A stretch of 64,000 nt of DNA from an uncultured Candidatus Saccharibacteria bacterium (lineage in GTDB: Bacteria > Patescibacteriota > Minisyncoccia > RBG-13-40-8-A), in the NCBI GenBank assembly GCA_965231075.1, contig OZ246412.1, positions 385,587-449,586 on the forward strand, given 5' to 3'. A program made the translations under genes and the position numbers. Positions 16,111 through 31,526 of the stretch are shown here, piece by piece (position 1 is the first letter of the stretch; every line of letters begins with the position of its first letter). Under the pieces are notes generated by a model that ran no database searches, had not been told where the DNA came from, and worked only from the letters and a program-made list of their open reading frames with translations.

Positions 16111-17514
16111 TTAAGGTGTAATTCTATAAATTGGCCTTCCTTTTTCTGATTCGCCAATAAATTCGGCACGTTTAAGACAATTAGAATTTTTAATGATAAA
16201 ATCAATAAATTGTTCTGGGGTGTAACTTTTGTAAACCGCCCTCCCCTGAAATTCCTCCGGAAGATACGGTTCAAAGATCAATTCTTTTGTATTGAGTCTT
16301 TTTACGAAATCGATTAAATTAAGATACGTGTCTTCTTGGTCCAAAAAGTGATGAAAAACGCTTAGAGCCAATACGACGTCAAAATTAATTTCTTGATTTT
16401 TTTTATATTCAAATAAATTTTCTGAAATTATCTTAAATTTTTTGTTTTCTATTTCTTTTAATCTTTTTAAAAAATTGACACACATCCGATTTTCTTCTAA
16501 TGCATAACAATCAAATCCTTCGTCTTCAAATCTGTGGCAAAAATATCCTAGATTGGCACCTACATCAAGAAGCGTTCCTTTTTTGGTGACAAGGCCATTT
16601 TCTATTGTTTTAAATCGCTCTTCTCCGTCCCTACGAAATGGAATATCTTGCAATTCCGGATGCGTAAGTGGCTGATAAAGTTGTCCTTTTTGATAATTTT
16701 TAGAAAAGAAAATTAATTCTTTTCTAAAGTCCATCCATTTCTTATGTCGAGTAATAACCACCACTGGAATTTTATCTAAATTCAACAACTTGACAATGGA
16801 AAGTCGATGTCTCCCATCGGCCAACACAAATTGACCGTTTCTATCAATAATTACCGCAATCTCATCTAATGCGCCACTCGATTTACCTATTTTATTTAAC
16901 AGTGTTTTTGGCGGATAGAGTTCCTGTTGTAATTTATAGCCATTGTCTTTAATTTGAGAATATAGCAAGTCTAATTTTTTAAGTCGCGCGTCAAAATCTT
17001 CTTTATTTTTACATTCCCATTTTCTTGTACCGGTAGATATTTGATTCAAAACCCTCTGATAAAACTCCGTATCTCTCCATTCGCCGCCATTCTTAAATCT
17101 GTGCTCAAATGCACGATAAACATCCATGTCTTCAAATTTTGCAACAGACAGGTCCCAGTCACCACTTAAAACCTTGCCATAATTTTGCCATGTCTTAAAT
17201 TTGCCATCCTTGTTTATCAAATAGTGATTTATTCTGTTGGGACTTATCCAAAGGATTTTATCTAAGTTTATAATGTTGTCGTTGTGTTTAATTTTTGTCG
17301 TTAATTTTAAAATTTGTTTTTTAATAATAAATTTTATATCACAAAAAAGGTTCCATCCCAGGGCCAATGGACGACCAATGATTGGCATTTTCTTATTCAA
17401 ATCAAAAATAAAGCTTCTGCTGTTTATGATTAATTTATTTTTTATTTTCTTGATTGATTTCATGTATCTAATAAATATTTTTTGCACCAAACCTGAAACA
17501 CTATTAATGCCCAA
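16111..17514 (-). CDS. Two-domain protein: N-terminal ParB/sulfiredoxin-fold domain fused to a C-terminal FkbM-family SAM methyltransferase
   Basis: ParB/Srx signature ...IAVIIDRNGQFVLADGRHRLSI.... The C-terminal half carries LLDVGANLGYF (FkbM-type motif I). Confidence 0.5.
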   Translation of the reverse strand: MGINSVSGLVQKIFIRYMKSIKKIKNKLIINSRSFIFDLNKKMPIIGRPLALGWNLFCDIKFIIKKQILKLTTKIKHNDNIINLDKILWISPNRINHYLINKDGKFKTWQNYGKVLSGDWDLSVAKFEDMDVYRAFEHRFKNGGEWRDTEFYQRVLNQISTGTRKWECKNKEDFDARLKKLDLLYSQIKDNGYKLQQELYPPKTLLNKIGKSSGALDEIAVIIDRNGQFVLADGRHRLSIVKLLNLDKIPVVVITRHKKWMDFRKELIFFSKNYQKGQLYQPLTHPELQDIPFRRDGEERFKTIENGLVTKKGTLLDVGANLGYFCHRFEDEGFDCYALEENRMCVNFLKRLKEIENKKFKIISENLFEYKKNQEINFDVVLALSVFHHFLDQEDTYLNLIDFVKRLNTKELIFEPYLPEEFQGRAVYKSYTPEQFIDFIIKNSNCLKRAEFIGESEKGRPIYRITP

Positions 17515-19268
17515 ATTAGATTTAAATTGTAACTTTTTTTATCAACATGGTCAATGAACATTCTCTGAATTCCATCGAAATTAAAATACTTTCTGTTGTC
17601 CGAAAAATACTCAGGAGACAAAATTTGTTTGGCTTTTTGATTAAGGCCTTCTCTCAACCATTGCGATGCTGGAGTCATCCAAACTTTTTTCTTGTCTGAA
17701 CTTAAAATATGTTCTGGTAAATATTTTTCCATTGCTTTAATAAAAATTGTCTTGCCTTGGTTTCTGTTAAGCATCTTGTATTTGTTGGGAATTTTTGCAG
17801 ACAGTTCTACTAATTGGTGGTCCAGAATTGGAACTCTTTCCTCTAATCCCATCGCCATCGTCATCTTATCAGAACGCATTAATGATTCGTCTGGTAACCA
17901 CGTTTTAAGATCGGCCAACATAAATTGATTTGTAAATTCTGTTCTCGGGCTTAATTTAAAATATTTTTTCTTAAATAATTTTAAAGTGTTTTTTGTTGAG
18001 TTTATATTTTTGTTTAAAATTTTCCCAAGTTCTTTTTCCTTCTGCGACATAAATTTCAAATAAACCCTGGTTTTCAAAAACGGAAAAAATCTTATAAATT
18101 TATATTTATCCAAAAAATAACCATAATAATATCTTTTGTATCCCCCAAATAATTCATCTCCGCCATCTCCACCCAAAACAACCGCCACCTCTTTTTTTGC
18201 ATATTCCGCCAAAAGCATGGTTGCAATTTGTGTTGGTTCTGCCACGGGTTCGTCCATATGATAAACAATTTTTTCCAAATTATTCAAAATATCTTCACTT
18301 TTAATTATAAGTTCGTGATGCTCGGTATTATAAAGCTTACTTGTTTCTCTGGCCAGTTTTAAATCAGCGTTAAATTTATTGTTTGGATCATTAATATTAA
18401 ACCCGACAGAGAACGTTTTAATTTTAGCATTAGTTAGTTCTTTCGCAATCCCCAAAACACTCGTAGAATCAATTCCCCCGCTTAAAAATACCCCCACCGG
18501 TCTGTCAGAAATAAGTTGTCCTTGAACTGATTTTTTCATTAAATTCTGAATTTTTCCAATAATTTCTTGTTCTGATTCAATCCTTTTTGTATCTGTAACG
18601 TCCCAATATTTATAAGTTTTTGGTTCGAAGTTCGGAGTTCGAAGTGAGGCCCTGAGATAATGTGCCTGTGGAAGCTTAAAAACGCCCTTAAACATCGTTA
18701 ATGGGGCTGGGACGTACATAAGTCGGAAATAATGGTTAAACGCTTCTGGGTCAATTTCTCGCTTAATATCGTGCTCTAAAATTGCTTTAATCTCTGATGA
18801 AAAAATGAACTTGTTGTCATCATTGTAATAATATAATGGTTTCACTCCGACTCTATCTCGTGCTAAAAATAATTCCTTGTTTTTAATATCATAAATTGCG
18901 AACGCAAAAATTCCATTCAATAGTTCTAAACACTTTTCTTTTTTTTCTTCGTATAAGTGTAACACAACCTCCGTATCCGTTTGAGAAATAAATTTATGAC
19001 CATTTTTTTCTAAATCTTTTTTTAGTTCTTGAAAATTATAAATTTCCCCATTAAAAATGATGCACAAACTTTTGTCTTCGTTAAAAAGTGGTTGTTTGCC
19101 GTTTTCAGACAAATCAATAATCGACAATCTTCTGTGCCCCAGGGAAATATTTTCATCAATATAAAAACCTTCTCCATCGGGCCCACGATGCTTTATTTTC
19201 TCATTCATTTTCCGAATTAATGTCCTGCTGTCGTTATTATAATTTATGAAACCGTTTATTCCGCACAT
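17460..19268 (-). CDS. asnB: Asparagine synthase (glutamine-hydrolysing) family amidotransferase
   Basis: N-terminal MCGI nucleophile Cys (class II glutamine amidotransferase), a SGGIDS PP-loop and overall AsnB-like length. Confidence 0.85.
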   Translation of the reverse strand: MCGINGFINYNNDSRTLIRKMNEKIKHRGPDGEGFYIDENISLGHRRLSIIDLSENGKQPLFNEDKSLCIIFNGEIYNFQELKKDLEKNGHKFISQTDTEVVLHLYEEKKEKCLELLNGIFAFAIYDIKNKELFLARDRVGVKPLYYYNDDNKFIFSSEIKAILEHDIKREIDPEAFNHYFRLMYVPAPLTMFKGVFKLPQAHYLRASLRTPNFEPKTYKYWDVTDTKRIESEQEIIGKIQNLMKKSVQGQLISDRPVGVFLSGGIDSTSVLGIAKELTNAKIKTFSVGFNINDPNNKFNADLKLARETSKLYNTEHHELIIKSEDILNNLEKIVYHMDEPVAEPTQIATMLLAEYAKKEVAVVLGGDGGDELFGGYKRYYYGYFLDKYKFIRFFPFLKTRVYLKFMSQKEKELGKILNKNINSTKNTLKLFKKKYFKLSPRTEFTNQFMLADLKTWLPDESLMRSDKMTMAMGLEERVPILDHQLVELSAKIPNKYKMLNRNQGKTIFIKAMEKYLPEHILSSDKKKVWMTPASQWLREGLNQKAKQILSPEYFSDNRKYFNFDGIQRMFIDHVDKKSYNLNLIWALIVFQVWCKKYLLDT

Positions 19269-20410
19269 ATAAATTCAATGATTTTTTTAGCTCGATTGTC
19301 CCACGTGTATTGCTGAACATCTTTATATGCTTGTTCCGATATTGATTTTAATAACTCTGTGTCGTTTAGTGCTTTTTTAATGCTAACTGCCATTGCTTCC
19401 GGATTATCTGATTCGACAAGAATAGAATTTTCGTTATTCAAAATCTCTTTAAACGAGGGAAGATTAGAAGCCACGATCGGATTGCCCGAAGCCATATATT
19501 CAAACATTTTCATTGGCGAAGTATGTTCTTTGGATGTTTCTGAGTTCGTGGTTCCAGTTAAAACTAGGCAATCGGCTGACTTTAAATAGGCAGGAATCAA
19601 AGAATAATCCTTGTGACCCAAAACCAGAACATTTCCCAAATTATTTTTTTCAACAAATTTTTTGAAATTAGATAGATACCATTTAATCCCGCCAACAATA
19701 ACAATTAAAACATTGTCTTCTAAGAATTTTGACGCCATTGCTAGCGTTTCCACGCCCTTCCACTTATATAAATGTCCCGCATAAAGAGCAATTTTTTTAT
19801 TCTGTGGTAATCCTAATTTTTCTCGACACCCCTCTTTGTCCGCAACAACATTAAAATCGTCTAAGTCAATTGCGTCTCCGGCAATCATAATTTTATTTTC
19901 TTTAACTCCCCTCTTCGCCAAATCTTTTTTCAGCCCATCAGTAATAACAATAATTTTTTGAACTCTATTTAGTATAAATTTAAATAAACTCTTGTGAAGT
20001 TGATGCGCCTCTAAAACAATATTGCGTTTAAATAAACAAAGGAAGAATAAACTAAACCTGTCTCGAGAATAAATAATATCTGCTTTTCTGAACAGAGTAT
20101 AAAAAAATGTCGAAATTGCAAAAGAGATTGCTTGAATTAAAAACGAAACTGGCCCCAGATATTTGTTTAGAGGGGTCAAATCGATACAAAATATCTTTTT
20201 GATCTTGAAACTTTTATCAACTCTATAGTATTCAAACGGATCTTTTTTTGATAGTTCAGATATGCCAAATCGTCTTGGAACAATAAGTTCCACCTCCAAC
20301 TTCGAACCTCTAACCTCTATCTCAGAAAACGCTCCGCACATCTTCATTATCTGAAGTCCATGTGCCATTTCGGTCGGTATTCTGATGTTGGCAATATAAA
20401 GTATTTTCAT
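19256..20410 (-). CDS. GT4-family glycosyltransferase
   Basis: C-terminal EYMASGNPIVASNLPS motif. Confidence 0.75.
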   Translation of the reverse strand: MKILYIANIRIPTEMAHGLQIMKMCGAFSEIEVRGSKLEVELIVPRRFGISELSKKDPFEYYRVDKSFKIKKIFCIDLTPLNKYLGPVSFLIQAISFAISTFFYTLFRKADIIYSRDRFSLFFLCLFKRNIVLEAHQLHKSLFKFILNRVQKIIVITDGLKKDLAKRGVKENKIMIAGDAIDLDDFNVVADKEGCREKLGLPQNKKIALYAGHLYKWKGVETLAMASKFLEDNVLIVIVGGIKWYLSNFKKFVEKNNLGNVLVLGHKDYSLIPAYLKSADCLVLTGTTNSETSKEHTSPMKMFEYMASGNPIVASNLPSFKEILNNENSILVESDNPEAMAVSIKKALNDTELLKSISEQAYKDVQQYTWDNRAKKIIEFICAE

Positions 20411-21831
20411 TATTTCTTTAAATAATTAATTCCGGTCTTAATTAATTCCTTTAATTCTCCAACTGATTTGGTTTTTCTTAATTTATTGAATCCCTTTTTA
20501 ATTATATTTCCTCTTATTCCTAATTCTTTGGTCATAATTGCTTTGATCTTTTCTAATTCTGCGCCCGGCCATTCCATATAGAATAAAGACGGATCAGTGC
20601 CGGCAACTTTGTATTTTGGCGATTGATAGGGGCTATTCCAAGAAAAATCTTTCGGCATTAAGCCCTTTTCTTTGGCCATTAATTCTAGTTCTGTTCCCGG
20701 ATAAATAACCGTAAACCCATAAGCAGGATAAGAATTTTTGATTTTGTTTAATTCTTTTATCACATTAATAGTTTGCTTTAAATCGTCGATTGTTTCTTCG
20801 GGTAAATTAACCATAAAATTCGTAACCACCTTCATCCCGATTTCTGAGGACCAACTTACCGCATTCATCACCTGTTCAATGGTGATGTTTTTCTTGATGA
20901 TTTTTAGAATCCTCGGACTACCCGATTCAACCCCAAAACTAATTCTTATACATCCCGCCTTTTTCATTAGTTCCAATAATTCTTTATCAACTGTATTTAC
21001 TCTCGCTCGTGCATACCAAACAATATTTAGATTTCTTTTAATGATTTCGTTACAAATTGCAATCGCGTGATCCCTAACCATGGTGAGAGTATCGTCCCAA
21101 AAATCAAAACCTTTATATCCGTAAGTTTTGTGTAAAAATTCCACTTCATCAATAAACTTTTTAGGATCCATTAATCTCAATCCGCTTCGAGAATTTGCAC
21201 AGTAGACACAATTATTAGGACATCCCCTGGCACTCATTACTCCCACAGAGCGAGTGTTTGTTCCGTCAATTGGCTTATTGTATAGTTTTAAATCAAATAA
21301 ATGCCAGGCTGGCGCGGGTAGGTCGTTAAGATTTTCGATTAAATCAAAATTTGGTCTTTCAATAATTTCATTTTTTTGATTTCTATAAACCAATCCCGAC
21401 ACATTGTTAAAATCGCCTTTGGATTCCAAAATATCCAAAAATTTTACAATCGCTTTTTCGGCTTCGCCTTTTATAATACAATCTATCTCTGGAACTAATT
21501 CTAAGGCATTTTTTGCAGTTAATGAAAAATGTGGTCCTCCCATTAAAACAATAACATTTTTGTTTCTTTTCTTAATTTCTTTGGCCAACTCAATTGCCTT
21601 AAAACGATTATCGGTAATTGCGTGTACACCAATTACGTCGGGCCTTTTCTCTAATATCTTTTCTGCGGTTTGTGAGGCATTAAACCCATAAGTGTGCGCA
21701 TCAAAAATCTCAACTCGATGGTGACTAAATTTTTCGACATACCCAGCAATATAACCGATGCCCAAAAACGGCACGCCCACTCTTTCTAGGTCGCCTTCGG
21801 CTCGAGGTGATGTTGTAAGTATTAGTTTCAT
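20410..21831 (-). CDS. B12-binding radical SAM enzyme (third paralog)
   Basis: N-terminal B12-binding-like domain, then SARGCPNNCVYC. Confidence 0.8.
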   Translation of the reverse strand: MKLILTTSPRAEGDLERVGVPFLGIGYIAGYVEKFSHHRVEIFDAHTYGFNASQTAEKILEKRPDVIGVHAITDNRFKAIELAKEIKKRNKNVIVLMGGPHFSLTAKNALELVPEIDCIIKGEAEKAIVKFLDILESKGDFNNVSGLVYRNQKNEIIERPNFDLIENLNDLPAPAWHLFDLKLYNKPIDGTNTRSVGVMSARGCPNNCVYCANSRSGLRLMDPKKFIDEVEFLHKTYGYKGFDFWDDTLTMVRDHAIAICNEIIKRNLNIVWYARARVNTVDKELLELMKKAGCIRISFGVESGSPRILKIIKKNITIEQVMNAVSWSSEIGMKVVTNFMVNLPEETIDDLKQTINVIKELNKIKNSYPAYGFTVIYPGTELELMAKEKGLMPKDFSWNSPYQSPKYKVAGTDPSLFYMEWPGAELEKIKAIMTKELGIRGNIIKKGFNKLRKTKSVGELKELIKTGINYLKK

Positions 21832-22973
21832 TTAAATAATTCTATAAACTTGTTGATGACATTATCAATTGAATATTCTCTAATCTTCTCTAATTCTTCT
21901 TTTTGAAAAGTCTCATAGGTTTCTGGTTCCGATAAAAGCGACTCTATTTTGTGTGCGAACAATTCTACATCCCCAGATTTGATTAAAAATCTCTGTGCCG
22001 TTTCTGGCGATATTTCTCTCACAGCACCAACATCAGAGGCAACATACGGAACGCCCATTGCCATTGCCTCAAGCAAAACTCGAGGAAATCCTTCTTCCAT
22101 TGATGGCATGATAAAAAGATCTGCTTGATTATAATAATCAATGATTTTTTCATTGGGAACAGCACCAACGACTTCGATATAATTTTCTAAATTATTTTCT
22201 TTTATTTCTTTTAATAATTGTTCCTTGTATGGACCATTGCCGACAACGATAAGTTTAAAGTTAGAAGTTAGATGTTCGAAGTTAATTAAATGTTTTGTAA
22301 TTGGAATAAGCATGTCAGCACCCTTTCTCTTTGAGAGCCAGTGGACAAAAAGAATGTTATAAGTTCGAGATTCGTGGCTTGAAGTTTCAGATTCTTCTAA
22401 CTTTGAACCTCGAGCTTTGAACCTATTTAAATTTATCCAATTTGGCATTACTTTTACGTTTTCTGGTTTTAAATTGTAATGTTCAACATATCCCTGTTTC
22501 ATTGTTTCTCCGCCGGTCACCAAATAATGCGAAAGTCTTAAACTTAATTTGTATCCTATTTTAGAAATATCTTTTTTCTTAAATAACCAATTCATTGCAC
22601 AGTTCCAATAATAAGATCTTCCCTTAAAAATTCTTGAAACGATTCCTGCATTCACTGCTCCGATGTAGGCATAGTGCGTATAAAAAAGATTATAACCTCT
22701 TTTTCTGGCTCTTAAAATCAGCTTCAAATTTTCCAAAATACGAAATGGAATGAACTTAAATTTCTGCACATATGTTTCGGGAATTTTAACCTTAATCGCT
22801 TCAATGTCTTCTTTTTTCCCTCTTTCAATAATCAGAAAAATATCAACTTTTTCCGAAAGTTTTTCTAGAAATTCATAGATATGATAAAAATGACTATCAG
22901 TGTTTTGATTATATTCAGGAAGTATGTAGCAAATACGTTTTTTAGTTTTTGGTTCGAGGTTCGAAGAACTCAT
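21828..22973 (-). CDS. GT4-family glycosyltransferase
   Basis: EGFPRVLLEAMAMGVPYVASDVGAVREI. The first codons (MSSSNLEPKT) are encoded by the GTTCGAR repeat. The start codon overlaps the stop of the upstream gene (ATGA). Confidence 0.75.
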   Translation of the reverse strand: MSSSNLEPKTKKRICYILPEYNQNTDSHFYHIYEFLEKLSEKVDIFLIIERGKKEDIEAIKVKIPETYVQKFKFIPFRILENLKLILRARKRGYNLFYTHYAYIGAVNAGIVSRIFKGRSYYWNCAMNWLFKKKDISKIGYKLSLRLSHYLVTGGETMKQGYVEHYNLKPENVKVMPNWINLNRFKARGSKLEESETSSHESRTYNILFVHWLSKRKGADMLIPITKHLINFEHLTSNFKLIVVGNGPYKEQLLKEIKENNLENYIEVVGAVPNEKIIDYYNQADLFIMPSMEEGFPRVLLEAMAMGVPYVASDVGAVREISPETAQRFLIKSGDVELFAHKIESLLSEPETYETFQKEELEKIREYSIDNVINKFIELFK

Positions 22974-23329
22974 TGTCGTAAATATTTTTTAAGACTTAAT
23001 AATTTAATAAAAATTTTATCTATTTTGTTATTACTCGACTCTATTTCGTTAGAAGAAATATATTTCAAATTCAATGCTATCTTTAGTGCCGTCTTAACCT
23101 CTACGAGGGAACCCAACGATATATCAACGAAACGAGCAAAATCCTTCTTAGTTTTTATGCTTCCTTCTGCGATATTTAATGCGACCGAAATAACTGCTCT
23201 TTTTATTTGTGCGCCCAACACAAACATCTCTTCTTTGGGAAATGTCCTAGTCAAACTATAAACATCTTCAATTAAACTCATAGACAATTGATATACTTCT
23301 AGTTTTTCAAAATTATATTCTTGAGTCAT
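22970..23329 (-). CDS. Four-helix-bundle protein (23S rRNA intervening-sequence protein family; DGR Avd-like fold)
   Basis: Family signature ...LEVYQLSMSLIEDVYSLTRTFPKEE...LGAQIKRAVISVALNIAEGS.... It is flanked by inverted GTTCGAR repeat copies. Confidence 0.7.
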   Translation of the reverse strand: MTQEYNFEKLEVYQLSMSLIEDVYSLTRTFPKEEMFVLGAQIKRAVISVALNIAEGSIKTKKDFARFVDISLGSLVEVKTALKIALNLKYISSNEIESSNNKIDKIFIKLLSLKKYLRQ

Positions 23330-23343
23330 GATCTTATTTTTTT

Positions 23344-25584
23344 TTAATTATCAGAATCAGAACTGCGAACATCGAACTTCGAACTTATCAACCGTTGATA
23401 AGTTAATGCATAATTTTCTATTGCTTTTTTACGTTCAAATTGTTGAACGGTTTGATAGCCATTTTCAGCAATTTTATTTCTTAAATTGTCGTCCTTTAAT
23501 AATAACATTATTTTATTGACAATATCTTCAATTTTCCAATCAACGAAAATACCATTTTCCATGTCCTTAATGATATCGTTCATTATTCCGACCCTACTCG
23601 TTAAAACTGGAATTTTACACGCCATTGCTTCAAGTGTTACCCTGGGACCACCCTCATTGAAAGATAGCATCGCCATCAATCTTGATTGATTATAAATACC
23701 AGCAACATCATTGGTGGTCGGCAACCATCCAGAAAATTCTATGTTGTTTTGTAGGTTATTTTTCTTGATAAATTTTTCTATCTTTGGTTTTAATGGTCCA
23801 TCACCCACGATAATAAGTTTAGGGTTCAGGGTTTTCAATTTAGAATTTGCTATTGCGCGTAGCAATAGAAATATCCCCTTGTTTTTTACTAATCTTCCAG
23901 AAAAAACAATATCATATTTTTTCTCTAAATTAATCGGCTTAAAAATATCTAGATCAATATAGAAAGCGGGAACATACTTTATCTTTTCCTTGTCAATTTT
24001 GAATTTAATTAAAAATTCTGGGACCTGATTTTGATTAATAACCCTAACTGCTCTCGCGTTTTTGGTAAATTTCTTAATAAATATTTTAGTTAAAATTTTG
24101 TAAAACCATTCCTTGCAATTGCCTGCTTTTGGATAGCCGGTTATGTGCATAATTTCTAAAAGATAGGGAGTTTTTATCTTTTTATGCAACCATAAGCCAC
24201 CAACATCATTATAAAATGGCGGATAGGAGTGAATTGTAAATAAATCAAATTTTTGTTGTTTAAAAATTTCTGTTCCTTTTTTTAATACAAACCAGGGTTG
24301 CAAAATTAACGGCAAATTTGACGAATGAATAAACACGTTCCCGAAAATATTATCGATTTTTTGTTCTGTTCGTGGACAAATTATATCAATTCTCTCCCAG
24401 CTTTTTGAAAATTCCTCCAACATATAATAAAATGGCCCATGTTTACCACCTGCCAACGCCCTATCTCCAGTTATCATAAGTAATTTTCGGCCCGAGGCCG
24501 ACCCGCCCTGGGCGGGCATCAACGCTTTAATAGTTTCGTTGATCATTCTTTTTAATTCGAATTGTTTTAATTTTTTATACCCATTTTCAATAAATTTCTT
24601 CCTCAAGTCTTCATCTTTCCATAATCTTAAAATAGCATTCTTTAATTGCTCTTTGTCGTTATATCTCACCAGTAAACCATTAAATTCATTTTCTATTACT
24701 TCCGGATTGCCACAAACACTAGTAGTAATTATTGGCAAACCGCAGGCCATTGCCTCTAAAAGTAAATGTGATAAACCTTCGTATCCCGTGTTTAAGACAA
24801 AAATATCACCACCCTTAAAACGAGCCATTAATTCTTTGTGAGGCATTTTCGTTTCAATAATCAATCTAAAATTTGGGTTTTCTTTTAATAGGTCTGGTAG
24901 AATTTCTTTAAGTGTATCGAAACCCTTCCATGGTTCCGGTCTGCCTGCGGAAATAATTACATCACCTTCTAACTTTTCTGGTGCAACATCTTCTACCCCT
25001 CGAAACGCGTTATAAATGACGATTATTTTATCGGCGTTAATCCCCCACCCAACCACTATTTTCTTTAAATATTCACTAGGAACAATCACTTTGCCAGCAC
25101 TACCAACAACTTTTTTTTGAATTTTTCTTCTTAATTCAGTTTTCCAATCATATTTTTTATTCTGAAACTCGTCAATAAGGTCAATTGTTTCTTGTTTCTT
25201 GTTTCTTGTTTCTTCGTTCTGGTACTGTTCCCATGCGTAATCACCTACAATTTTAATTATAAATTTCTTCTTTAAAATTTTAGAAATTAACATCGCTGGT
25301 AGACCAGCTGACAATGGTCCTTGAGCATAAATAATGTCTGCGTTTTTTGCTAATTTAAACAAATTCTTGAAATAATTAAGATATCGTTTTAATGTATTTT
25401 GTTTTCGCAATATTCTAATTATTCTAAATTTCTCATATTTATCATTTTCCTCGTATTTATCGCCATAACAAATTAAATCAACCTCAATTCCTTGATCGCT
25501 AAATTCCCTCGCAATTAACTGCGAGTATGTTGCCGGTCCACCGCTATCCGGTGGATATATTCCTGATGCAATTACAATTTTCAT
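23344..25584 (-). CDS. Fused tandem GT4 glycosyltransferase (two complete GT-B units)
   Basis: Two C-terminal-type GT4 motifs (LLEAMACGLPIITTS and LEAMACKIPVLTSRVG) plus two N-terminal halves (MKIVIASGIYPPDSGG and a PAQGGSASGRKLLMITGD region). Confidence 0.75.
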   Translation of the reverse strand: MKIVIASGIYPPDSGGPATYSQLIAREFSDQGIEVDLICYGDKYEENDKYEKFRIIRILRKQNTLKRYLNYFKNLFKLAKNADIIYAQGPLSAGLPAMLISKILKKKFIIKIVGDYAWEQYQNEETRNKKQETIDLIDEFQNKKYDWKTELRRKIQKKVVGSAGKVIVPSEYLKKIVVGWGINADKIIVIYNAFRGVEDVAPEKLEGDVIISAGRPEPWKGFDTLKEILPDLLKENPNFRLIIETKMPHKELMARFKGGDIFVLNTGYEGLSHLLLEAMACGLPIITTSVCGNPEVIENEFNGLLVRYNDKEQLKNAILRLWKDEDLRKKFIENGYKKLKQFELKRMINETIKALMPAQGGSASGRKLLMITGDRALAGGKHGPFYYMLEEFSKSWERIDIICPRTEQKIDNIFGNVFIHSSNLPLILQPWFVLKKGTEIFKQQKFDLFTIHSYPPFYNDVGGLWLHKKIKTPYLLEIMHITGYPKAGNCKEWFYKILTKIFIKKFTKNARAVRVINQNQVPEFLIKFKIDKEKIKYVPAFYIDLDIFKPINLEKKYDIVFSGRLVKNKGIFLLLRAIANSKLKTLNPKLIIVGDGPLKPKIEKFIKKNNLQNNIEFSGWLPTTNDVAGIYNQSRLMAMLSFNEGGPRVTLEAMACKIPVLTSRVGIMNDIIKDMENGIFVDWKIEDIVNKIMLLLKDDNLRNKIAENGYQTVQQFERKKAIENYALTYQRLISSKFDVRSSDSDN

Positions 25585-25586
25585 GC

Positions 25587-26120
25587 TTAATTAATCGTTG
25601 TCTCCGTGGTCAATTTTCTTTTGCTCATAAAAGACACTGCTAATTCATAAACTCCAAATAAAATTGCGACATAGAACAGGTCACCCATTAATGTCCCCCT
25701 AAAAAACGGGATCGCCATTGTAAAACATTGACCCAGACCAGCCAGAGTGTGCGGATACCAACTATAAAATGCCCAAACCGCAAAATTAGTAATCACAAAA
25801 AACAATACAGACCCCAAAAGCGTGCTACCAATTATAGTGCCAATATTTTTATGTTTTTTAACAAACAACCCAATTAAACCAACCAGAATAAAACTTAAAT
25901 ATACCCCTGCCATTAATTTAATGTCGTAAAAACCAATAAAATAGTCGCTAATCAGCATCGCTATAATTGGAAACAACAATGCATATTTTTTATTAAGATA
26001 AATTCCTCCAAACAAAGCCATCGCCGTAATTGGGGCAAAATTTGGAAAATGAGGGGCAAATCTCAACGCCACCCCCAAAACCACAAAAATTATAGCTAAC
26101 CACGAAATAGTCTTCTTCAT
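25587..26120 (-). CDS. Small polytopic membrane protein of unknown function
   Basis: About 5 TM helices; no recognisable catalytic motif. Confidence 0.35.
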   Translation of the reverse strand: MKKTISWLAIIFVVLGVALRFAPHFPNFAPITAMALFGGIYLNKKYALLFPIIAMLISDYFIGFYDIKLMAGVYLSFILVGLIGLFVKKHKNIGTIIGSTLLGSVLFFVITNFAVWAFYSWYPHTLAGLGQCFTMAIPFFRGTLMGDLFYVAILFGVYELAVSFMSKRKLTTETTIN

Positions 26121-26178
26121 GTTTTTTACTTATTAATTGTTATTTCTATCTTGATGTTAAGTTTAAAGTGATGTATAA

Positions 26179-27258
26179 TTGTCATTAATAGGTTATATGT
26201 ATTTTACGTTCCCACAATTTAAAAAGTTTCCGATAAAATTGCTTTTCAGAAAATTCTCTGAAAATTTTTTGTTAGAAAAACTGCAAAATATTTTTCCTAA
26301 TTATCACATTATCTTCACGGACTCTGGACGTTCGGCGTTTCAATTGGCAATCGAATCTTTGGGCTTACAGAATACTGAAATGATTCTCCCGGCCTATCTT
26401 TGCGACATCTTTAAACCAATCCTTAAACATTATGATATTAAACCCATACATATAGATACTAACTTGGAAACGTTCCAAATGGAATTATCGGAAATTGATT
26501 CTCAAATCACTCCCAACACTAAATCGATTTTAATCTCTCACACCTACGGACTACCTGTTGACATGGAACAGGTTTCTCGAATTGCCAGAAATTACAATTT
26601 AAAAATCATCGAAGATTGTGCTCATATCGCTCCGCCAGATTCTCCAGAAAAATTCGGCGATGCTTTATTTTTTAGCTTCGCTAAATTATTTCCAGTTATT
26701 AGTGGAGGCATGCTTGTTTCAAAAGAAAATATCAATATTAAACTAGAAAAAACTAAAATTACTTTTCGAAGCGTTATCAAATTTCTAAGACTCTTCCCTT
26801 CCCTAGCTAACCTTTCCGAGATATTTAGGCCCGAGGAAAAATTAATCGAAAATCAACGCTCTGTTCCTAAAAAACCATTAAAAATCTATTTAAATATCAC
26901 AGACTATTGTTTAGAAAGGTTGCCGGAAAAAATTATTCAACGGATTAAAATTGCAAGTTATTTTCAAAAACAATTACAGAAACTTAATTTTAAAGTGCAA
27001 ACATCTGAAAACAATAATTTCACCATACTTTCTGCCCTTGTTCCAGAAAGCGCTGATCGCGACAAATTATTTTACGGCCTAAGAAAACGCGGCATTTTCT
27101 GTGCTAGGATCTGGCGAAATCCTTTATTAAAACAACTACCCAACACCTCTTTAATTTCCAAACAAATTATTAATTTTCCTCTACAGTACTGGTATAAAGA
27201 AAAAGATGTTGATAAAATTATATTCTATATTTTAAAAGAATTGGACTCAAAAGTTTAA
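26179..27258 (+). CDS. DegT/DnrJ/EryC1/StrS-family PLP-dependent sugar aminotransferase
   Basis: IIEDCAHI segment and SFAKLF (PLP-Lys context). Confidence 0.65.
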   Translation: MSLIGYMYFTFPQFKKFPIKLLFRKFSENFLLEKLQNIFPNYHIIFTDSGRSAFQLAIESLGLQNTEMILPAYLCDIFKPILKHYDIKPIHIDTNLETFQMELSEIDSQITPNTKSILISHTYGLPVDMEQVSRIARNYNLKIIEDCAHIAPPDSPEKFGDALFFSFAKLFPVISGGMLVSKENINIKLEKTKITFRSVIKFLRLFPSLANLSEIFRPEEKLIENQRSVPKKPLKIYLNITDYCLERLPEKIIQRIKIASYFQKQLQKLNFKVQTSENNNFTILSALVPESADRDKLFYGLRKRGIFCARIWRNPLLKQLPNTSLISKQIINFPLQYWYKEKDVDKIIFYILKELDSKV

Positions 27259-28222
27259 TTATAAAATTGGGCAACAAAATAAACAGATTTCTTACTCTCG
27301 AAGAACGTAGTTTTTCGGGATTTTTTTCTTTTTTCAAAATGATTATCGGATATTCTTTGCCTCCCCATCCAGATTTAAACGTGAAAAGAGATGAATTTTT
27401 GGGAGTTGCTCCAAGGTCCAAGATAATATCTTGGCCGACTAAGCTTTCTATCTTATTCCAAAGAATGAGATAATTTGCCCCCAGGTTCTTATGTTTTTGA
27501 TCAGAGGCACTTAAAAAATAGTGCACAAAACCTGAATATTCTACAAATAGGCTACCTCCCACGATTTTATCCCTATCAAAGACCAATAAAAGCTCGCTAG
27601 GCGCATTTTTATAGAGAAACTGAATCAGTAACCAGGGATACGGAATTGTCTTTTTGCGCCTTAAATTTGCAACATATAAATTGTAAAACTTTTTTAACTC
27701 TTTTAGATTCTCACATTTTCTAACCACTAAATTTTGGTCTTGGGCGTGTTTAATTTCGTGTCTCAACGTCTTTCTAAAAGAATCCCAAATTTCTTGTGCT
27801 GATTTATTTTTAAAATTCTCAAGCCAATGGGTTGTTAGGTTCGAAGTTCGAGGTTCGAGGTTGTGAGTTATGGGTTCGAGGTTTGAAATTTGAAGTATTT
27901 GTGGGTGAAATTTTACTTTAATTCTCTCGCCAAATTCCTTAAAGACATCTTTTTCAAATTCTTGTAAATTGATTTCGCCGTTTAAAATTAACGGTCCTCC
28001 ATATTCACAGAACGGCAATGAAATAATTTTCTCTTTGTTGAAAATTCTAAATTTAGCTATCGGAAATATTATTTCGGACCCATATAAATAATATTCGAAA
28101 AAAATCCATCTAAACTGTTTCTCTAAAAATTCATGCCAATCGGCATTATGAAAAAAGGTGCTAAATTTTGTTCTATTAAATAATTCTCTATACTGATTTC
28201 TGGTTATTTTTGTAAAATTCAT
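27218..28222 (-). CDS. FemAB/BioF2-like GNAT-fold acyl/aminoacyl transferase (candidate sugar N-acyl or aminoacyl modifier)
   Basis: Weak resemblance to the FemAB / Acetyltransf_6 family; contains a long in-frame GTTCGAR repeat insertion. Start placed at the internal Met (MNFTKITRNQ) rather than the ORF-track start 28255; either way it overlaps the next gene. Confidence 0.35.
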   Translation of the reverse strand: MNFTKITRNQYRELFNRTKFSTFFHNADWHEFLEKQFRWIFFEYYLYGSEIIFPIAKFRIFNKEKIISLPFCEYGGPLILNGEINLQEFEKDVFKEFGERIKVKFHPQILQISNLEPITHNLEPRTSNLTTHWLENFKNKSAQEIWDSFRKTLRHEIKHAQDQNLVVRKCENLKELKKFYNLYVANLRRKKTIPYPWLLIQFLYKNAPSELLLVFDRDKIVGGSLFVEYSGFVHYFLSASDQKHKNLGANYLILWNKIESLVGQDIILDLGATPKNSSLFTFKSGWGGKEYPIIILKKEKNPEKLRSSRVRNLFILLPNFIIKLLSPILLKYRI

Positions 28223-28994
28223 AAATTTGTTCTCCGGACTTAAACTCGTAACCAATTTCTTTTAAAAATTTCATGATTTCATCAAGTTGTTTTATAAAAT
28301 CCTTACCACTATTTTTTGATCCTTTACCTTCAAATTTTACGCCATCCCACGAATGCATGCTTAGACTTATAAAATTCGGCTTTCTAAATTTAAAAATAAA
28401 TTTAAAGAATTTAACACCCAACTTTCTTAACCATGTTCCCACAAAAGGAACACTGAATGGTGCGGGACTTTCCGGTATTTCAAGAATCCCAACACCTCCC
28501 TTCTTTTTATAATTTTTTTCATTTGGCCAATAGGGAACGACTGGCGCTTTTCCCAAATAACCGGCATATGCACCAATTCTCCAGGGATAGCGTGGAAATA
28601 CGCTAGAGTCATAAATAAACCCATATCTTGCCAAAATTGGAAATTGCTTATTGTCGATTACGTTTCTTGGACCCCTGAAACCCTTTGGTGTATCGTTAAA
28701 GACATTTTTATATAGGTTGTAAAAGTTCTTAATTTGTCTTTCTCTTTCTGAAAGATCAATTCTATTTAATTGGTTATGAAAATAATTATGGCAACCAATT
28801 TCAAAATCTTTTGCCCATCTTTTAACTAAATCTGGAGAATATTCCAAAACCTCGCCAGTAACAAAAAGCGTTGCCGGAGCATCATATTTTCTAAAAACGC
28901 TCAAAATATTGTCTAAATTATCAACCCCCTCGAAAGGACGGTCTATTTGATTTTCGCGCTTTTCAACGTCAATTGACAGAAAACAAGTTTTCAT
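28188..28994 (-). CDS. Polysaccharide deacetylase-like (CE4-related) protein
   Basis: HNYFHN (CE4 motif 2-like) and TLFVTGE. Divergent. Confidence 0.45.
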   Translation of the reverse strand: MKTCFLSIDVEKRENQIDRPFEGVDNLDNILSVFRKYDAPATLFVTGEVLEYSPDLVKRWAKDFEIGCHNYFHNQLNRIDLSERERQIKNFYNLYKNVFNDTPKGFRGPRNVIDNKQFPILARYGFIYDSSVFPRYPWRIGAYAGYLGKAPVVPYWPNEKNYKKKGGVGILEIPESPAPFSVPFVGTWLRKLGVKFFKFIFKFRKPNFISLSMHSWDGVKFEGKGSKNSGKDFIKQLDEIMKFLKEIGYEFKSGEQIYEFYKNNQKSV

Positions 28995-30090: not shown

Positions 30091-31443
30091 TCAATCCCAA
30101 TTGATATTGTCCGGCCCGCCGTATGCACCCATGTCACTTCTATAAATTGTACCGGTTAAGAGTTTGCCATCATTATAATCGGTCCCGGGATGTCCGGTGT
30201 TGATACACGGAGAAACATTGTCCCCATCCCCCCAAACCAAGCGATAGTTTCTTTCTCGTGTATTTACGAATTTTGGGTCACGTGAAATTCCGCCATCACC
30301 CATTCCCACACCACCGAATGAATCAAGTCCGTTGCCATAAATATCGCTATAGCTATTGTTGATTTCTCCACTCTTTAAATATATCCCCGTACTTGTTCCA
30401 CTACCCATATTTGACGAAACGATATTGTTAAAGGTTTTAATTTTAGAATTTTCTACCCAAATACCGTGATGGTTGTCGTCAATTGTGTTATTTCTAATTT
30501 CAGTTGTAAGAGCATATGATAAATTGTCTTTAATAAAAATTCCCCCACCGTCTTTATTGTCCGAGGAACGATTATTGTAAATAATATTATTCAATATTGT
30601 TAATTGGCAATTGTTTTCGGCATAAATTCCCCATTTTGAATCCTTAAAAACAATGTTCTTAATTGTTCCACTAACTTTATTTGTGCCATCACAATAAATT
30701 GCTTTCTGGTCTTTGCTTTGTATTGTGATTTTCTGAATTAAGACATTTTCGGCATCGTTGATTTTTATCGCCGAATCATTGCCCTGGCCATCAATAGTTG
30801 TATATCCTGCTGATTCTCCAATCAGTTTTAGATTTTTATTAATCACCAGATTTTCTTTATATGTTCCTTTGGAAATTGTGATTATGTCGCCATCAATTGA
30901 GGCATTTATCGCTGATTGGATTGTGGAATAATCGGTGGGAACGCGTAAGGTTGCTGGAATTGTTCTAATTGTTGTATCTGTGGGTGGCACTGGCACTTCT
31001 GGGATTTGTGATGACTGATAAATTAAATCTATGCCGTTTATGTAAAAATCTCTTTCAAATGAATTTATTTCATAAATTGCTTCTGTTTTATAACCGAATC
31101 CATTAAAATCTTCGGCGGTTTTTATCCATCGTTTTTCGCCTGTGTCGTCATTAGGATATAATCTATAAACCTTATCGTCTCCAACGGCACGTACTAAGTC
31201 AGAAACTACATATTTGTTTACTTCTTCTTGATTCACGATTTTAATATTTTCCCATTTCAAATGACCATATTGATTAAAAATTTCTGGATTTAAAATAAGG
31301 CGCTTGTACTCGCCCTTAATAATATAAACATCATTAGAATCTAATGTTTTAATTAGATCGCCATCATTAATCGCAGTAATAGCATTTGCCTGCACAATGG
31401 GAGCTAGTAAAAATAATAATATTATTAGTAATAATTTTCTCAT
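30091..31443 (-). CDS. Secreted right-handed parallel beta-helix protein that shares its N-terminal domain with the 1221-aa surface protein
   Basis: Signal peptide MRKLLLIILLFLLAPIVQANA. C-terminal pectate-lyase-like beta-helix repeats (NLKLIGES...IDGQGNDSAIKI...). Start moved to the ATG at 31441-43; the ORF-track start at 31473 is a TTG inside an upstream TTGAAAAT tandem repeat. Confidence 0.6.
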   Translation of the reverse strand: MRKLLLIILLFLLAPIVQANAITAINDGDLIKTLDSNDVYIIKGEYKRLILNPEIFNQYGHLKWENIKIVNQEEVNKYVVSDLVRAVGDDKVYRLYPNDDTGEKRWIKTAEDFNGFGYKTEAIYEINSFERDFYINGIDLIYQSSQIPEVPVPPTDTTIRTIPATLRVPTDYSTIQSAINASIDGDIITISKGTYKENLVINKNLKLIGESAGYTTIDGQGNDSAIKINDAENVLIQKITIQSKDQKAIYCDGTNKVSGTIKNIVFKDSKWGIYAENNCQLTILNNIIYNNRSSDNKDGGGIFIKDNLSYALTTEIRNNTIDDNHHGIWVENSKIKTFNNIVSSNMGSGTSTGIYLKSGEINNSYSDIYGNGLDSFGGVGMGDGGISRDPKFVNTRERNYRLVWGDGDNVSPCINTGHPGTDYNDGKLLTGTIYRSDMGAYGGPDNINWD

Positions 31444-31490
31444 AATTTTCAATTTTGAATTTTCAATTTTCAATGAATTTTCAATTATTT
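31444..31490 (-). repeat. Tandem octamer repeat (TTGAAAAT)x~5 immediately 5' of the start codon
   Basis: Minus strand reads ttgaaaattcattgaaaattgaaaattcaaaattgaaaattATG; no SD sequence. Confidence 0.6.
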
Positions 31491-31526
31491 AATTTTTAAT
31501 ACTAATTATATTTTAGCACAAATAAA

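What the first reader, a model, noticed from the sequence alone, without database searches (positions are those of the whole stretch)
18622..27895. Dispersed in-frame heptamer repeat family (GTTCGAR)n inside six different coding sequences
Short tandem arrays of the heptamer GTTCGAA/GTTCGAG (2-4 units, some degenerate) occur at:
- 18622-18644 (asnB)
- 20293-20317 (GT4)
- 22362-22424 (GT4, degenerate)
- 22951-22966 (first codons of a GT4)
- 23360-23386 (last codons of the tandem GT4)
- 27838-27895 (FemAB-like gene)
The host genes are unrelated and the positions are non-homologous. In every case the array is translated in frame into a hydrophilic peptide: NLEPKT / NFEPKT / NLEPRTSNL when read as TCGAACC, or EVRGSKLEV / SSKFDVRSS when read as GGTTCGA. 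This is an inserted element tolerated in both orientations, not a shared protein motif. All copies lie in the glycan island. The heptamer unit is not a multiple of three, so gain or loss of one unit would shift the frame.
Basis: seen in the sequence. Interest (0 to 1): 0.7.

Follow-up and report, generated by a model that had tools for sequence, protein, structure and literature searches.

The report
Heptamer-repeat foldback element inside glycan genes
The GTTCGAR repeats are real: they are the arms and leftovers of a small selfish insertion built like the intervening sequences of 23S rRNA (a four-helix-bundle gene between inverted 7-base repeat arrays), here sitting in tolerant loops and gene junctions of a sugar-chain operon in a candidate-phyla-radiation bacterium.

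Summary
(GTTCGAR)2 with up to 2 mismatches occurs 17 times against 1.1 expected, and every match lies between 18.6 and 27.9 kb. The arrays sit in five genes, not six.

Two arrays in inverted orientation (22951-22966 and 23357-23386) flank a 119-aa PF05635/TIGR02436 gene (22970-23329, minus strand). [quoted passage not shown] A second inverted pair without a gene forms a 69-nt in-frame hairpin at 22356-22424. The remaining arrays are single arms.

In 58 unrelated metagenomic PF05635 genes, 54 have a tandem array in at least one flank. The period is mostly 7 or 14, and the two flanks are usually inverted copies of each other. Syntenic operons of related CPR genomes carry PF05635 or GxxExxY cassettes with other repeat units at other junctions, and the matching empty sites have no arrays.

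The encoded peptides lie in hypervariable loops or termini with low pLDDT.

The cross-phylum spread of GTTCGAR is not special, because scrambled heptamers are about as common.

Verdict: a foldback, IVS-like selfish element family with gene-less derivatives that are tolerated in frame. I found no evidence for phase variation. The way the element moves is unknown.

The parts
22951..23386 (-). Complete foldback element: 5' arm, PF05635 gene, 3' arm. It is inserted at the junction of the tandem GT4 gene and GT4-381.
   Evidence: The junction is uninterrupted in L121 and L125, where the two genes overlap by 38 nt.
23357..23386 (-). 5' arm, (GTTCGAA GTTCGAT GTTCGCA GTTCTGA) on the sense strand. It encodes the last residues (SSKFDVRSS, then DSDN and the stop codon) of the 746-aa tandem GT4.
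   Evidence: Orthologs end in ...LLHTS.
22970..23329 (-). Gene for a 119-aa four-helix-bundle protein (PF05635 23S_rRNA_IVP; TIGR02436; distant match to Avd; PDB 2GSC relative).
   Evidence: E = 1.3e-30; TIGR02436, E = 9.6e-29; 2gsc, E = 2e-21.
22951..22969 (-). 3' arm, (TTCGAAC CTCGAAC C) on the sense strand. It overlaps the ATGA stop/start and encodes the N-terminal extension MSSSNLEPK of GT4-381.
   Evidence: the 7-aa extension is absent from 23 orthologs; residues 1-9 have pLDDT below 50.
22356..22424 (-). Gene-less foldback (G-type arm, loop, C-type arm), 69 nt, in frame in the interdomain linker of GT4-381 (aa 184-206).
   Evidence: hairpin -19.3 kcal/mol, z = -3.4; hypervariable linker; same element at the same site in L207; coil, pLDDT about 53.
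22258..22284 (-). Degenerate C-type array (INFEHLTSNF, GT4-381 aa 230-239). It is old or coincidental, being shared by four orthologs with synonymous changes.
20293..20321 (-). Solitary G-type array in GT4-384 (aa 30-40, EIEVRGSKLEV), at a loop where L125 is 5 aa shorter and L121 carries an unrelated 36-aa palindromic insertion.
18622..18644 (-). Solitary C-type array in asnB, in the interdomain region (aa 209-216). L121 has a perfect (TTGGAAA)x4 of the same length at this site, and L125 has CTTGAAA CTCAAAA plus a GC-rich palindrome.
27838..27895 (-). Solitary C-type array of 8-9 units in the FemAB-like gene (aa 121-140). It is 11 aa longer than in the L121 and L125 orthologs.

Best explanation
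The GTTCGAR arrays are the arms, paired or solitary, of one family of foldback insertion elements built from tandem heptamers.

The full copy (22951-23386) has this layout: (GTTCGAR)n, then a 119-aa PF05635 four-helix-bundle gene, then (YTCGAAC)n. This is the architecture described for the 23S rRNA intervening sequence of Coxiella, where the S23p ORF sits inside a stem made of heptamer repeats. Here the element lies between two glycosyltransferase genes.

The other seven arrays, within 4.5 kb of the full copy, are gene-less derivatives: one foldback hairpin and several solitary arms.

The arrays persist inside coding sequence for three reasons.
- The genome has almost no intergenic space.
- The unit has no stop codon in any frame.
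- Only copies that add a multiple of three bases to a tolerant surface loop, linker or gene end survive selection.

What is shown:
- The architecture of the element.
- The insertion polymorphism between related genomes.
- The loop or terminal location of the encoded peptides.
- The remodelling of two gene ends. The element supplies the C-terminus and stop codon of the upstream GT4 gene, and the start codon and N-terminus of the downstream one.

What is inferred:
- Solitary arrays derive from elements rather than arising on the spot.
- Spread is local, from the gene-bearing copy.
- The elements are selfish or neutral for the host enzymes.

The molecular mechanism of movement is unknown. No transposase, integrase or reverse transcriptase is encoded nearby.
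For: - Inverted arrays flank the PF05635 gene and close a terminal stem.
- The same layout with GTTCGRG arms occurs in a Thermomicrobiales MAG, L060.
- Among 120 genome loci with (GTTCGAR)3, about 25 close inverted pairs are ordered G-arm then C-arm, against 1 in the opposite order.
- In 58 non-redundant metagenomic PF05635 genes, 54 have a tandem array in at least one flank and 32 in both. The periods are 7 (38 flanks) and 14 (11), then 8 (13).
- The flank pair of a single gene is inverted-complementary (score 12 or more) in 28 of 58 genes, against 1 of 169 mismatched pairs and 1 of 58 gene-body controls (score 10 or more: 33 of 58, 8 of 169 and 3 of 58).
- The 5' arm has G over C in 29 cases against 4.
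- Syntenic CPR operons carry PF05635 or GxxExxY cassettes with other units (TTAGGGA, ATTGAAA, ATTCGGAT) at other junctions. The matching empty sites in the window and L125 lack any array.
- Gene-less arrays of the same family lie near each gene-bearing copy: window GTTCGAR, L121 TTAGGGA, L121 ATTGRAA.
- The window arrays fall at hypervariable loops or termini.
- The linker foldback shared with L207 has diverged at 11 of 23 residues, while the whole protein is 78% identical.
- Near-identical GTTCGAR hairpins occur at different loci in Nitrospira MAGs.
- In the Coxiella IVS, an S23p ORF lies inside a 28-bp inverted-repeat stem; (GACAGAT)x3-4 tandem repeats lie at its 5' end, the RNase III site falls at the first repeat, and copy number varies between strains (PMC4990558).
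Against: - Most heptamer arrays are not next to a PF05635 gene. Only 3 of 121 sequences with GTTCGAR arrays have one, and none of 97 viral loci with arrays do.
- Scrambled heptamers form arrays about as often as GTTCGAR: 11, 51 and 11 viral hits against 24. Arrays can therefore arise without this gene.
- I found no target-site duplication around the hairpin copies.
- At the asnB site all three genomes have an array of a different unit, and two of them have identical length. That looks more like turnover or conversion in place than independent insertion.
- Stem mismatches show no excess of G-U over A-C (35 against 38), so an RNA stem is not demonstrably under selection.
- Only 64 kb of the source genome could be examined.
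Confidence: 0.62

Rival explanations
1. The arrays are ordinary heptanucleotide simple-sequence repeats. They arise and turn over in place by replication slippage at sites under weak constraint. The PF05635 gene merely tends to sit in, or insert into, such arrays.
For: - Heptanucleotide repeats are reported as the commonest long simple-sequence-repeat class in prokaryotes, and TAACTGA arrays occur across phyla with no known vehicle (PMC4679880).
- Scrambled heptamers are as frequent as GTTCGAR in viral contigs.
- The asnB site carries arrays of different units but equal length in the window and L121, including a perfect (TTGGAAA)x4.
- Most arrays have no gene nearby.
Against: - Eight arrays of one unit family clustered within 9.3 kb around a gene flanked by that same unit cannot each have arisen independently.
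- Empty junctions in sister genomes lack arrays altogether.
- The strict inverted pairing and G-then-C polarity are not predicted by slippage.
- Near-identical hairpins are dispersed within Nitrospira genomes.
Confidence: 0.2
2. The arrays are contingency (phase-variation) tracts. Gain or loss of a 7-nt unit switches glycan-modifying genes on and off.
For: - The unit is not a multiple of three.
- The host genes are glycosyltransferases and related enzymes, a classic setting for phase variation (general knowledge).
- A perfect (GAAACAA)x4.3 tract also lies in frame at 25185-25214.
Against: - GTTCGAR tracts are short (2-4 good units) and degenerate (80-89% matches), which makes slippage unlikely.
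- All host ORFs are intact.
- Four strains at 98-99% identity show no unit-number change in their in-frame arrays. The only array indel is a 48-nt block next to a PF05635 gene.
- The window and L207 keep the same foldback length despite heavy substitution.
Confidence: 0.06
3. The arrays are cis-acting binding sites on RNA or DNA for the pentameric PF05635 protein, one heptamer per subunit. The same-family arrays in the operon then form a small post-transcriptional or processing regulon. The paired arms would form RNase III stems, as in rRNA intervening sequences.
For: - Arms typically have about 4 units (median 3.7 copies).
- The PDB relative 2GSC is deposited with five chains. Its pentameric toroid and the pentameric nucleic-acid binding of Avd are reported in the literature (the toroid in PMC4990558; Avd from general knowledge).
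- The Coxiella IVS stem is cut by RNase III.
- Same-family arrays cluster around the gene.
Against: - Stems show no strand asymmetry of G-U pairs.
- Solitary arrays in the window do not fold.
- No binding data exist.
- Most arrays in other genomes lack the gene.
Confidence: 0.1
4. The peptides NLEPRTS and VRGSKLE are a conserved functional protein motif shared by the glycan enzymes.
For: INFEHLTSNF is conserved in four orthologs with synonymous changes.
Against: - The other segments are absent or replaced in orthologs.
- They lie in low-confidence coil.
- They occur in both orientations, giving unrelated peptides.
- The similarity is at the DNA level.
Confidence: 0.02

Closest known systems
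23S rRNA intervening sequences carrying an S23p (PF05635) ORF, as in Coxiella burnetii and Leptospira
   Same: - The protein family is the same.
- The ORF lies between terminal inverted repeats that form a stem.
- In Coxiella tandem heptamers (GACAGAT x3-4) lie at the 5' end of the IVS where the 28-bp stem is cut, and their number varies between strains (PMC4990558).
- The element is about 430 bp, against 428 nt in Coxiella.
   Different: - The window element lies between two protein-coding genes of a glycan operon, not in helix 9, 25 or 45 of 23S rRNA.
- Its arms are translated as part of the neighbouring genes.
- Gene-less arms and hairpins of the same family sit inside ORFs.
- RNase III excision is untested and would cut the operon mRNA.
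Heptanucleotide tandem repeat families: cyanobacterial STRR sequences, and the TAACTGA repeats of Beggiatoaceae, Cyanobacteria and Bacteroidetes
   Same: - They are short tandem arrays of a 7-nt unit.
- They are multi-copy within a genome and phylogenetically scattered.
- They often abut start codons.
- They are occasionally translated inside ORFs in the stop-free orientation (PMC4679880).
   Different: - Those arrays are described as mainly intergenic direct repeats, with only one inverted set reported and no associated gene.
- Here the arrays are mostly intragenic.
- Here they are organised as inverted arms around a PF05635 gene or as foldbacks.
Rickettsia palindromic elements (RPE), from general knowledge
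   Same: They are selfish repeats inserted in frame into unrelated protein-coding genes at structurally tolerant positions, adding hydrophilic peptide segments.
   Different: - RPEs are 100-150 bp complex palindromes with a conserved sequence.
- They are not tandem heptamers.
- They have no associated gene-bearing master copy.
REP/BIME elements with RAYT genes (REPINs), and eukaryotic Foldback transposons, from general knowledge
   Same: - A small gene is flanked by inverted copies of a short repeat that is also dispersed without the gene.
- Foldback elements have terminal inverted repeats built from tandem subrepeats of variable number.
   Different: - PF05635 has no recognised transposase or nuclease fold.
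- No target-site duplications are seen.
- The repeats are tandem 7-mers rather than a single palindrome.

Membership tests
IVS-type element (S23p ORF inside an inverted-repeat stem) | Encodes a PF05635 / TIGR02436 four-helix-bundle protein | tested here: met
IVS-type element (S23p ORF inside an inverted-repeat stem) | Terminal inverted repeats that pair to close the element | tested here: met
   the terminal stem GUUCGAAGUUCGA / UCGAACCUCGAAC appears in both the MFE and centroid folds. The arms are visible.
IVS-type element (S23p ORF inside an inverted-repeat stem) | Located in a 23S (or 16S) rRNA helix | tested here: not met
   There is no rRNA in the window. The element lies between two GT4 genes.
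IVS-type element (S23p ORF inside an inverted-repeat stem) | Excised from the transcript by RNase III | not testable with these tools
   This needs RNA-end mapping or an in vitro RNase III assay.
Heptanucleotide simple-sequence repeats / STRR-like repeats | Tandem 7-nt units, multi-copy and dispersed | tested here: met
Heptanucleotide simple-sequence repeats / STRR-like repeats | Predominantly intergenic location | tested here: not met
   All eight arrays lie within ORFs or overlap ORF ends.
Phase-variable contingency tract | Long, near-perfect tract prone to slippage | tested here: not met
   The tracts have 2-4 good units at 80-89% matches.
Phase-variable contingency tract | Unit-number polymorphism between close strains or within a population | tested here: inconclusive
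   No change was seen in the in-frame arrays of four related contigs, L121-L124. No strain or read data were available for the window genome itself.
Classical DNA transposon / MITE | Terminal inverted repeats plus target-site duplication | tested here: inconclusive
   Inverted arms are present. No clear duplication is seen at the hairpin copies. At junction A the overlapping gene ends appear partly duplicated, but the boundaries are ambiguous.
Classical DNA transposon / MITE | Cognate transposase encoded in a master copy | tested here: not met
   The only ORF in the element is PF05635. No transposase, integrase or reverse transcriptase appeared among the ORFs scanned, all those between 16.1 and 41.9 kb plus seven others; ORFs at 1.9-16.1 kb and most small ORFs beyond 44.7 kb were not scanned.
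Diversity-generating retroelement | Reverse transcriptase with a template/variable repeat pair next to Avd | tested here: not met
   The match to Avd is weak and below cutoff (31 bits against 80). No RT appeared among the ORFs scanned.
Rickettsia palindromic element-like in-frame insertion | Palindromic repeat inserted in frame in unrelated ORFs at tolerant sites | tested here: met
   The foldback at 22356-22424 is in frame in a linker. The other copies are single arms, so the resemblance is functional and does not imply homology.

The most novel reading that the evidence does not exclude
PF05635 "IVS proteins" may be the trans-acting partner of heptamer arrays in general.

Under this reading, a pentameric four-helix-bundle ring recognises about 4-5 tandem heptamers. 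It would promote the formation, copying or maintenance of same-unit arrays near its own gene, with a fixed G-rich-arm-first polarity. The gene would therefore seed the local family of arrays, including those written into neighbouring ORFs.

This would give a function to a large orphan protein family. It would also give a mechanism for rRNA intervening sequences and part of an explanation for the excess of heptanucleotide repeats in prokaryotes.
Probability: 0.15. Interest if true: 0.85.

Novelty: new variant of a known kind. Interest (0 to 1): 0.6.

Why it matters
Three phenomena have been described separately and are each unexplained:
- rRNA intervening sequences that carry an S23p ORF;
- the excess of heptanucleotide tandem repeats in prokaryotes;
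- in-frame selfish repeats in coding genes.

In this operon they appear as one object. If the link holds genome-wide, PF05635 genes would mark a widespread class of foldback cassettes that remodel gene ends, fuse or split ORFs, and add disordered loops to enzymes in streamlined genomes.

The link also offers a tractable experiment, binding of the protein to its cognate array, for a protein family with a solved structure and no known function.

Papers in the searchable library describe the pieces but not this link. That library is incomplete, so I cannot rule out that the link has been published.

Tried and rejected
- **Rfam scan of the window:** nothing reached threshold.
- **Cross-phylum hits as horizontal transfer.** I first read the 120+ cross-phylum genome hits for (GTTCGAR)3 as evidence that one element had been transferred horizontally. 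Control scans with three scrambled heptamers gave similar counts in viral contigs, so I dropped that inference.
- **Arrays as markers of PF05635 genes.** I tested whether GTTCGAR arrays generally mark PF05635 genes. Only 3 of 121 sequences have one. The association runs from gene to arrays, not from arrays to gene.
- **RNA-level selection on stems.** I compared G-U with A-C mismatches and found no asymmetry.
- **Solitary arrays as hairpins.** I folded them on their own and they do not fold.
- **Source contig beyond the window.** The exact-match lookup found no record.
- **GxxExxY relatives in viral contigs:** none found. The first attempt with a six-sequence PF05635 alignment was too divergent for locus search.
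- **T-loop resemblance.** GTTCGAR resembles the tRNA T-loop consensus. I noted this but have no supporting evidence.
- **Long-range pairing.** I considered pairing between the solitary G-array at 20.3 kb and the C-array at 18.6 kb but did not pursue it.


Full report
**1. The observation**

The six arrays are at the stated coordinates. (GTTCGAR)2 with up to two mismatches matches 17 times against 1.13 expected from dinucleotide-preserving shuffles, with a maximum of 5. The single heptamer is not enriched (17 against 13.7), so the tandem arrangement is what is unusual. Tandem Repeats Finder independently reports period-7 arrays at 18623, 20292, 22258, 23360 and 27837. Every match lies between 18.6 and 27.9 kb of the 64-kb window, and all but one chance-level hit (19544) fall in one of the arrays. 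If eight arrays were placed at random, that clustering would have a probability of about 1e-6.

All host genes are on the minus strand:
- asnB, 17460-19268;
- a GT4 of 384 aa, 19256-20410;
- a GT4 of 381 aa, 21828-22973;
- a 746-aa tandem GT4, 23344-25584;
- a FemAB-like gene, 27218-28255.

The quoted peptides are correct. Two of the listed sites lie in the same ORF, so five genes are involved rather than six. That ORF also holds a seventh, degenerate array at 22258-22284.

Because 7 and 3 share no factor, a heptamer array encodes the same cyclic seven-residue peptide in every frame. The peptide is F/L-E-L/P-R-T-S-N in one orientation and V-R-S/G-S-K-F/L-E in the other. The unit has no stop codon in any of the six frames. 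Only the total added length has to be a multiple of three.

**2.

A 119-aa ORF lies at 22970-23329 on the minus strand, between the arrays at 22951-22966 and 23357-23386. [quoted passage not shown] It has a weak match to the DGR protein Avd and a solved relative, PDB 2GSC.

On the gene's sense strand the order is:
1. (GTTCGAA GTTCGAT GTTCGCA GTTCTGA);
2. a 30-nt A-rich spacer;
3. the gene;
4. (TTCGAAC CTCGAAC C).

The two arrays are therefore inverted, and they close the predicted fold of the 466-nt region.

The upstream arm supplies the last residues and the stop codon of the tandem GT4 (…ISSKFDVRSSDSDN*). The stop codon of the PF05635 gene overlaps the start codon of GT4-381 (ATGA). The downstream arm supplies the first residues of GT4-381 (MSSSNLEPK).

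The array at 22356-22424 is also an inverted pair, with a G-type arm, a 21-nt loop and a C-type arm. It folds at -19.3 kcal/mol (z = -3.4) and is read through in frame. The remaining arrays are solitary arms and do not fold on their own.

**3. Comparison with orthologs**

The organism is a candidate-phyla-radiation (Patescibacteria/Paceibacteria-like) bacterium. This follows from the source names of the closest GT4 homologs and a 626-kb contig.

*GT4-381, aligned with 23 orthologs:*
- The N-terminal SSNLEPK is a 7-aa extension unique to the window.
- Residues 184-206 fall in a linker that varies in both length and sequence in all orthologs.
- Residues 230-239 (INFEHLTSNF) are shared by four orthologs with synonymous differences, so that segment is old or only coincidentally array-like.

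*AlphaFold model of GT4-381 (mean pLDDT 85.5):*
- Residues 1-9 have pLDDT below 50.
- The linker is coil with pLDDT about 53.
- Residues 230-239 are in a loop.

*The closest relative, L207 (78% identical protein):*
- It keeps a GTTCGAR foldback of identical length at the linker site.
- 11 of its 23 residues there differ from the window, which is faster divergence than in the rest of the protein.

*The other host genes, compared with two syntenic genomes, L121 and L125:*
- The FemAB array is 11 aa longer than in the orthologs.
- The GT4-384 array is 5 aa longer than in L125. L121 has an unrelated 36-aa palindromic insertion at that point.
- The asnB array occupies a site where L121 has a perfect (TTGGAAA)x4 of the same length. 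L125 has CTTGAAA CTCAAAA plus a GC-rich palindrome there.

The peptides are therefore not conserved protein sequence. However, at least the asnB site has carried some array since before these genomes diverged.

**4. Insertion polymorphism in syntenic operons**

Lookups of P0003 and P0005 returned the same glycan operon from related genomes. These operons carry PF05635 genes at other junctions:
- between the radical-SAM gene and GT4, and between GT4 and asnB, in L121;
- between a GT4 and the deacetylase in L125.

A GxxExxY/PDDEXK_3 gene lies between GT4-381 and the radical-SAM gene in L121 and L207.

Each cassette has its own flanking repeats:
- (TTAGGGA)n and (TCCCTAA)n;
- (TTTCAAT)n and (ATTGAAA/ATTGATA)n;
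- inverted ATTCGGAT-type repeats;
- in one case, a direct repeat of 18 nt.

At the corresponding junctions the window and L125 have tightly abutting or overlapping genes and no array. Conversely, the window's element sits where L121 and L125 have a 38-nt gene overlap. L125 has a gene-less foldback of yet another unit at the GT4/asnB junction.

Gene-less arrays of the same unit as a local cassette occur nearby inside ORFs. An in-frame TTAGGGA-family foldback (FSSLGVSDPIPNPQSLIPN) lies 0.8 kb from the TTAGGGA-flanked gene in L121. Five ATTGRAA arrays lie around the other gene.

**5. Generality of the gene-array link**

A metagenome scan returned 80 loci with PF05635 genes. Of these, 58 are non-redundant genes with usable flanks.

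- *Arrays in the flanks.* TRF finds a tandem array in at least one 140-nt flank of 54 genes and in both flanks of 32. The best periods per flank are 7 (38 flanks), 14 (11), 8 (13), 16 (4), 9 (6) and 15 (4), with eight others.
- *Inverted pairing.* The upstream flank matches the reverse complement of its own downstream flank with a score of 12 or more in 28 of 58 genes. The same score is reached in 1 of 169 mismatched gene pairs. At a score of 10 or more, the counts are 33 of 58 against 3 of 58 for gene-body controls.
- *Polarity.* The 5' arm has more G than C in 29 elements against 4. Among loci with GTTCGAR arrays, close inverted pairs are ordered G-arm then C-arm about 25 times against 1. 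This polarity is the same on both strands, so it is a property of the element and not of transcription direction.
- *Stem mismatches.* There is no excess of G-U over A-C (35 against 38). Selection on a sense-strand RNA stem is therefore not demonstrated.

The published description of the Coxiella 23S IVS fits the same plan. An S23p ORF sits inside a 28-bp inverted-repeat stem; three or four GACAGAT heptamers lie at the 5' end of the IVS, and their number varies between strains. RNase III cuts the stem (PMC4990558). PF05635 ORFs have also been reported in CPR rRNA insertions (PMC11270868).

**6. Limits on the interpretation**

The pattern (GTTCGAR)3 hits more than 120 contigs from very diverse phyla and 24 viral contigs. 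Three scrambled heptamers of the same composition hit 11, 51 and 11 viral contigs. Heptamer arrays of any unit are common, and the wide distribution of this unit does not by itself show horizontal transfer.

Only 3 of 121 sequences with GTTCGAR arrays contain a PF05635 ORF:
- two are flanked by the arrays, namely the window and L060;
- the third (L027) is flanked by a different inverted repeat.

None of 97 viral array loci contains a PF05635 ORF. One GTTCGAR pair flanks an unrelated small secreted-protein gene (L070). PF05635 genes are thus nearly always embedded in arrays, but most arrays have no such gene.

Near-identical GTTCGAR hairpins at different loci in Nitrospira MAGs show that gene-less foldbacks multiply within genomes. 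I found no target-site duplications.

Heptanucleotide direct repeats that are scattered across phyla, placed next to start codons and occasionally translated have been described before, with no mechanism (PMC4679880).

**7. Phase variation**

The arithmetic is right: adding or removing one unit shifts the frame. But the GTTCGAR tracts have only 2-4 good units at 80-89% matches. Four contigs of one relative at 98-99% identity differ in arrays only by a 48-nt block beside a PF05635 gene. Their in-frame arrays, including a perfect (TTGGAAA)x4, are unchanged. I rate this explanation as unlikely. It is not excluded, because no read data for the window genome were available.

**8. Conclusion**

The best-supported reading is a foldback element family made of heptamer arrays.
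- The complete member (22951-23386) carries a PF05635 gene and has the architecture of an rRNA intervening sequence, but sits in a protein-coding operon.
- The gene-less members and solitary arms are tolerated in frame at loops and gene ends.

The element has visibly remodelled two gene termini. How it moves is unknown. No transposase, integrase or reverse transcriptase was found among the window ORFs scanned, which include every ORF between 16.1 and 41.9 kb. The fixed G-first polarity and the local clustering of same-unit arrays around each gene-bearing copy are the main unexplained clues.

I did not find the link between PF05635 genes and inverted heptamer arrays outside rRNA in the searchable literature, and that library is incomplete. 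I classify the finding as a new variant of known kinds: the IVS with an S23p ORF, heptanucleotide repeat families, and in-frame selfish repeats.

Noticed in passing
window 25185-25214: A perfect (GAAACAA)x4.3 heptamer array on the sense (minus) strand, in frame in the tandem GT4 (ETRNKKQET). At the same loop L121 has a different heptamer array and L125 has none. It is the most slippage-prone tract in the window.
   Followed up: partly
window 31444-31500: An (ATTGAAA)n array on the sense strand that ends immediately upstream of the ATG of the NosD-like gene (30091-31473). L121 has the same unit family at the same junction and around one of its PF05635 genes.
   Followed up: partly
window 24484-24516: A 33-nt insert of 79% GC in a 33% GC genome, made of two mini-hairpins (CCCGCCCAGGGCGGG and TCGGCCTCGGGCCGA). 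It joins two GT4 genes, which are separate in L121 and L125, into one 746-aa ORF (PAQGGSASGRK). Similar GC-rich segments (QPKAGPPRAEK, SAGRQGPKPK, DPSTGSGQA) occupy variable loops of orthologs, which suggests a second family of in-frame palindromic insertions.
   Followed up: partly
L121 11080-11670; L207 1150-1770: A GxxExxY / PDDEXK_3 (PF13366, TIGR04256) gene cassette flanked by inverted ATTCGGAT-type repeats lies between GT4-381 and the radical-SAM gene. Its upstream arm supplies the C-terminal SESTN of the GT4. This is a second small-gene family using the same cassette layout.
   Followed up: partly
L125 3858-4400; L121 and L208 GT4 linkers: A repeat family CAAGCGAAGCGATC (peptides KRSDQ and QAKRS) flanks the L125 PF05635 gene as direct repeats. 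It also occupies the GT4 linker in L121 and L208.
   Followed up: no
window arrays generally: GTTCGAR equals the tRNA T-loop consensus (G53 T54 Psi55 C56 R57 A58). I know of no reason for this, and the window has no tRNA gene.
   Followed up: no
L066 3650-3990: A Cloacimonadales ORF of about 2100 aa contains four higher-order repeats of about 60 nt. Each holds (GTTCGAA)4 and is translated as SSLRTSNFELRTSYD. Heptamer arrays can therefore be built into larger protein repeats.
   Followed up: no
L018, L027, L036, L056, L095, L110: Nitrospira and Nitrospiraceae MAGs carry near-identical GTTCGAR hairpins (3 units, a 4-8 nt loop, 4 units). The hairpins have a GC-rich outer inverted segment (GACGGGCG ... 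CGCCCGTC) and sit at different loci. This looks like a REP-like dispersed element.
   Followed up: partly
window 62392-62434: A 21-nt unit repeated twice (TCGCTCAATT...) in an apparent intergenic region.
   Followed up: no
window 41271-41927: A 218-aa protein with a PaaX central Cas2-like domain lies next to ClpB and type IV pilus genes. The window as a whole is a typical CPR gene set of pilus, ECF sigma factor and large beta-helix surface proteins.
   Followed up: no
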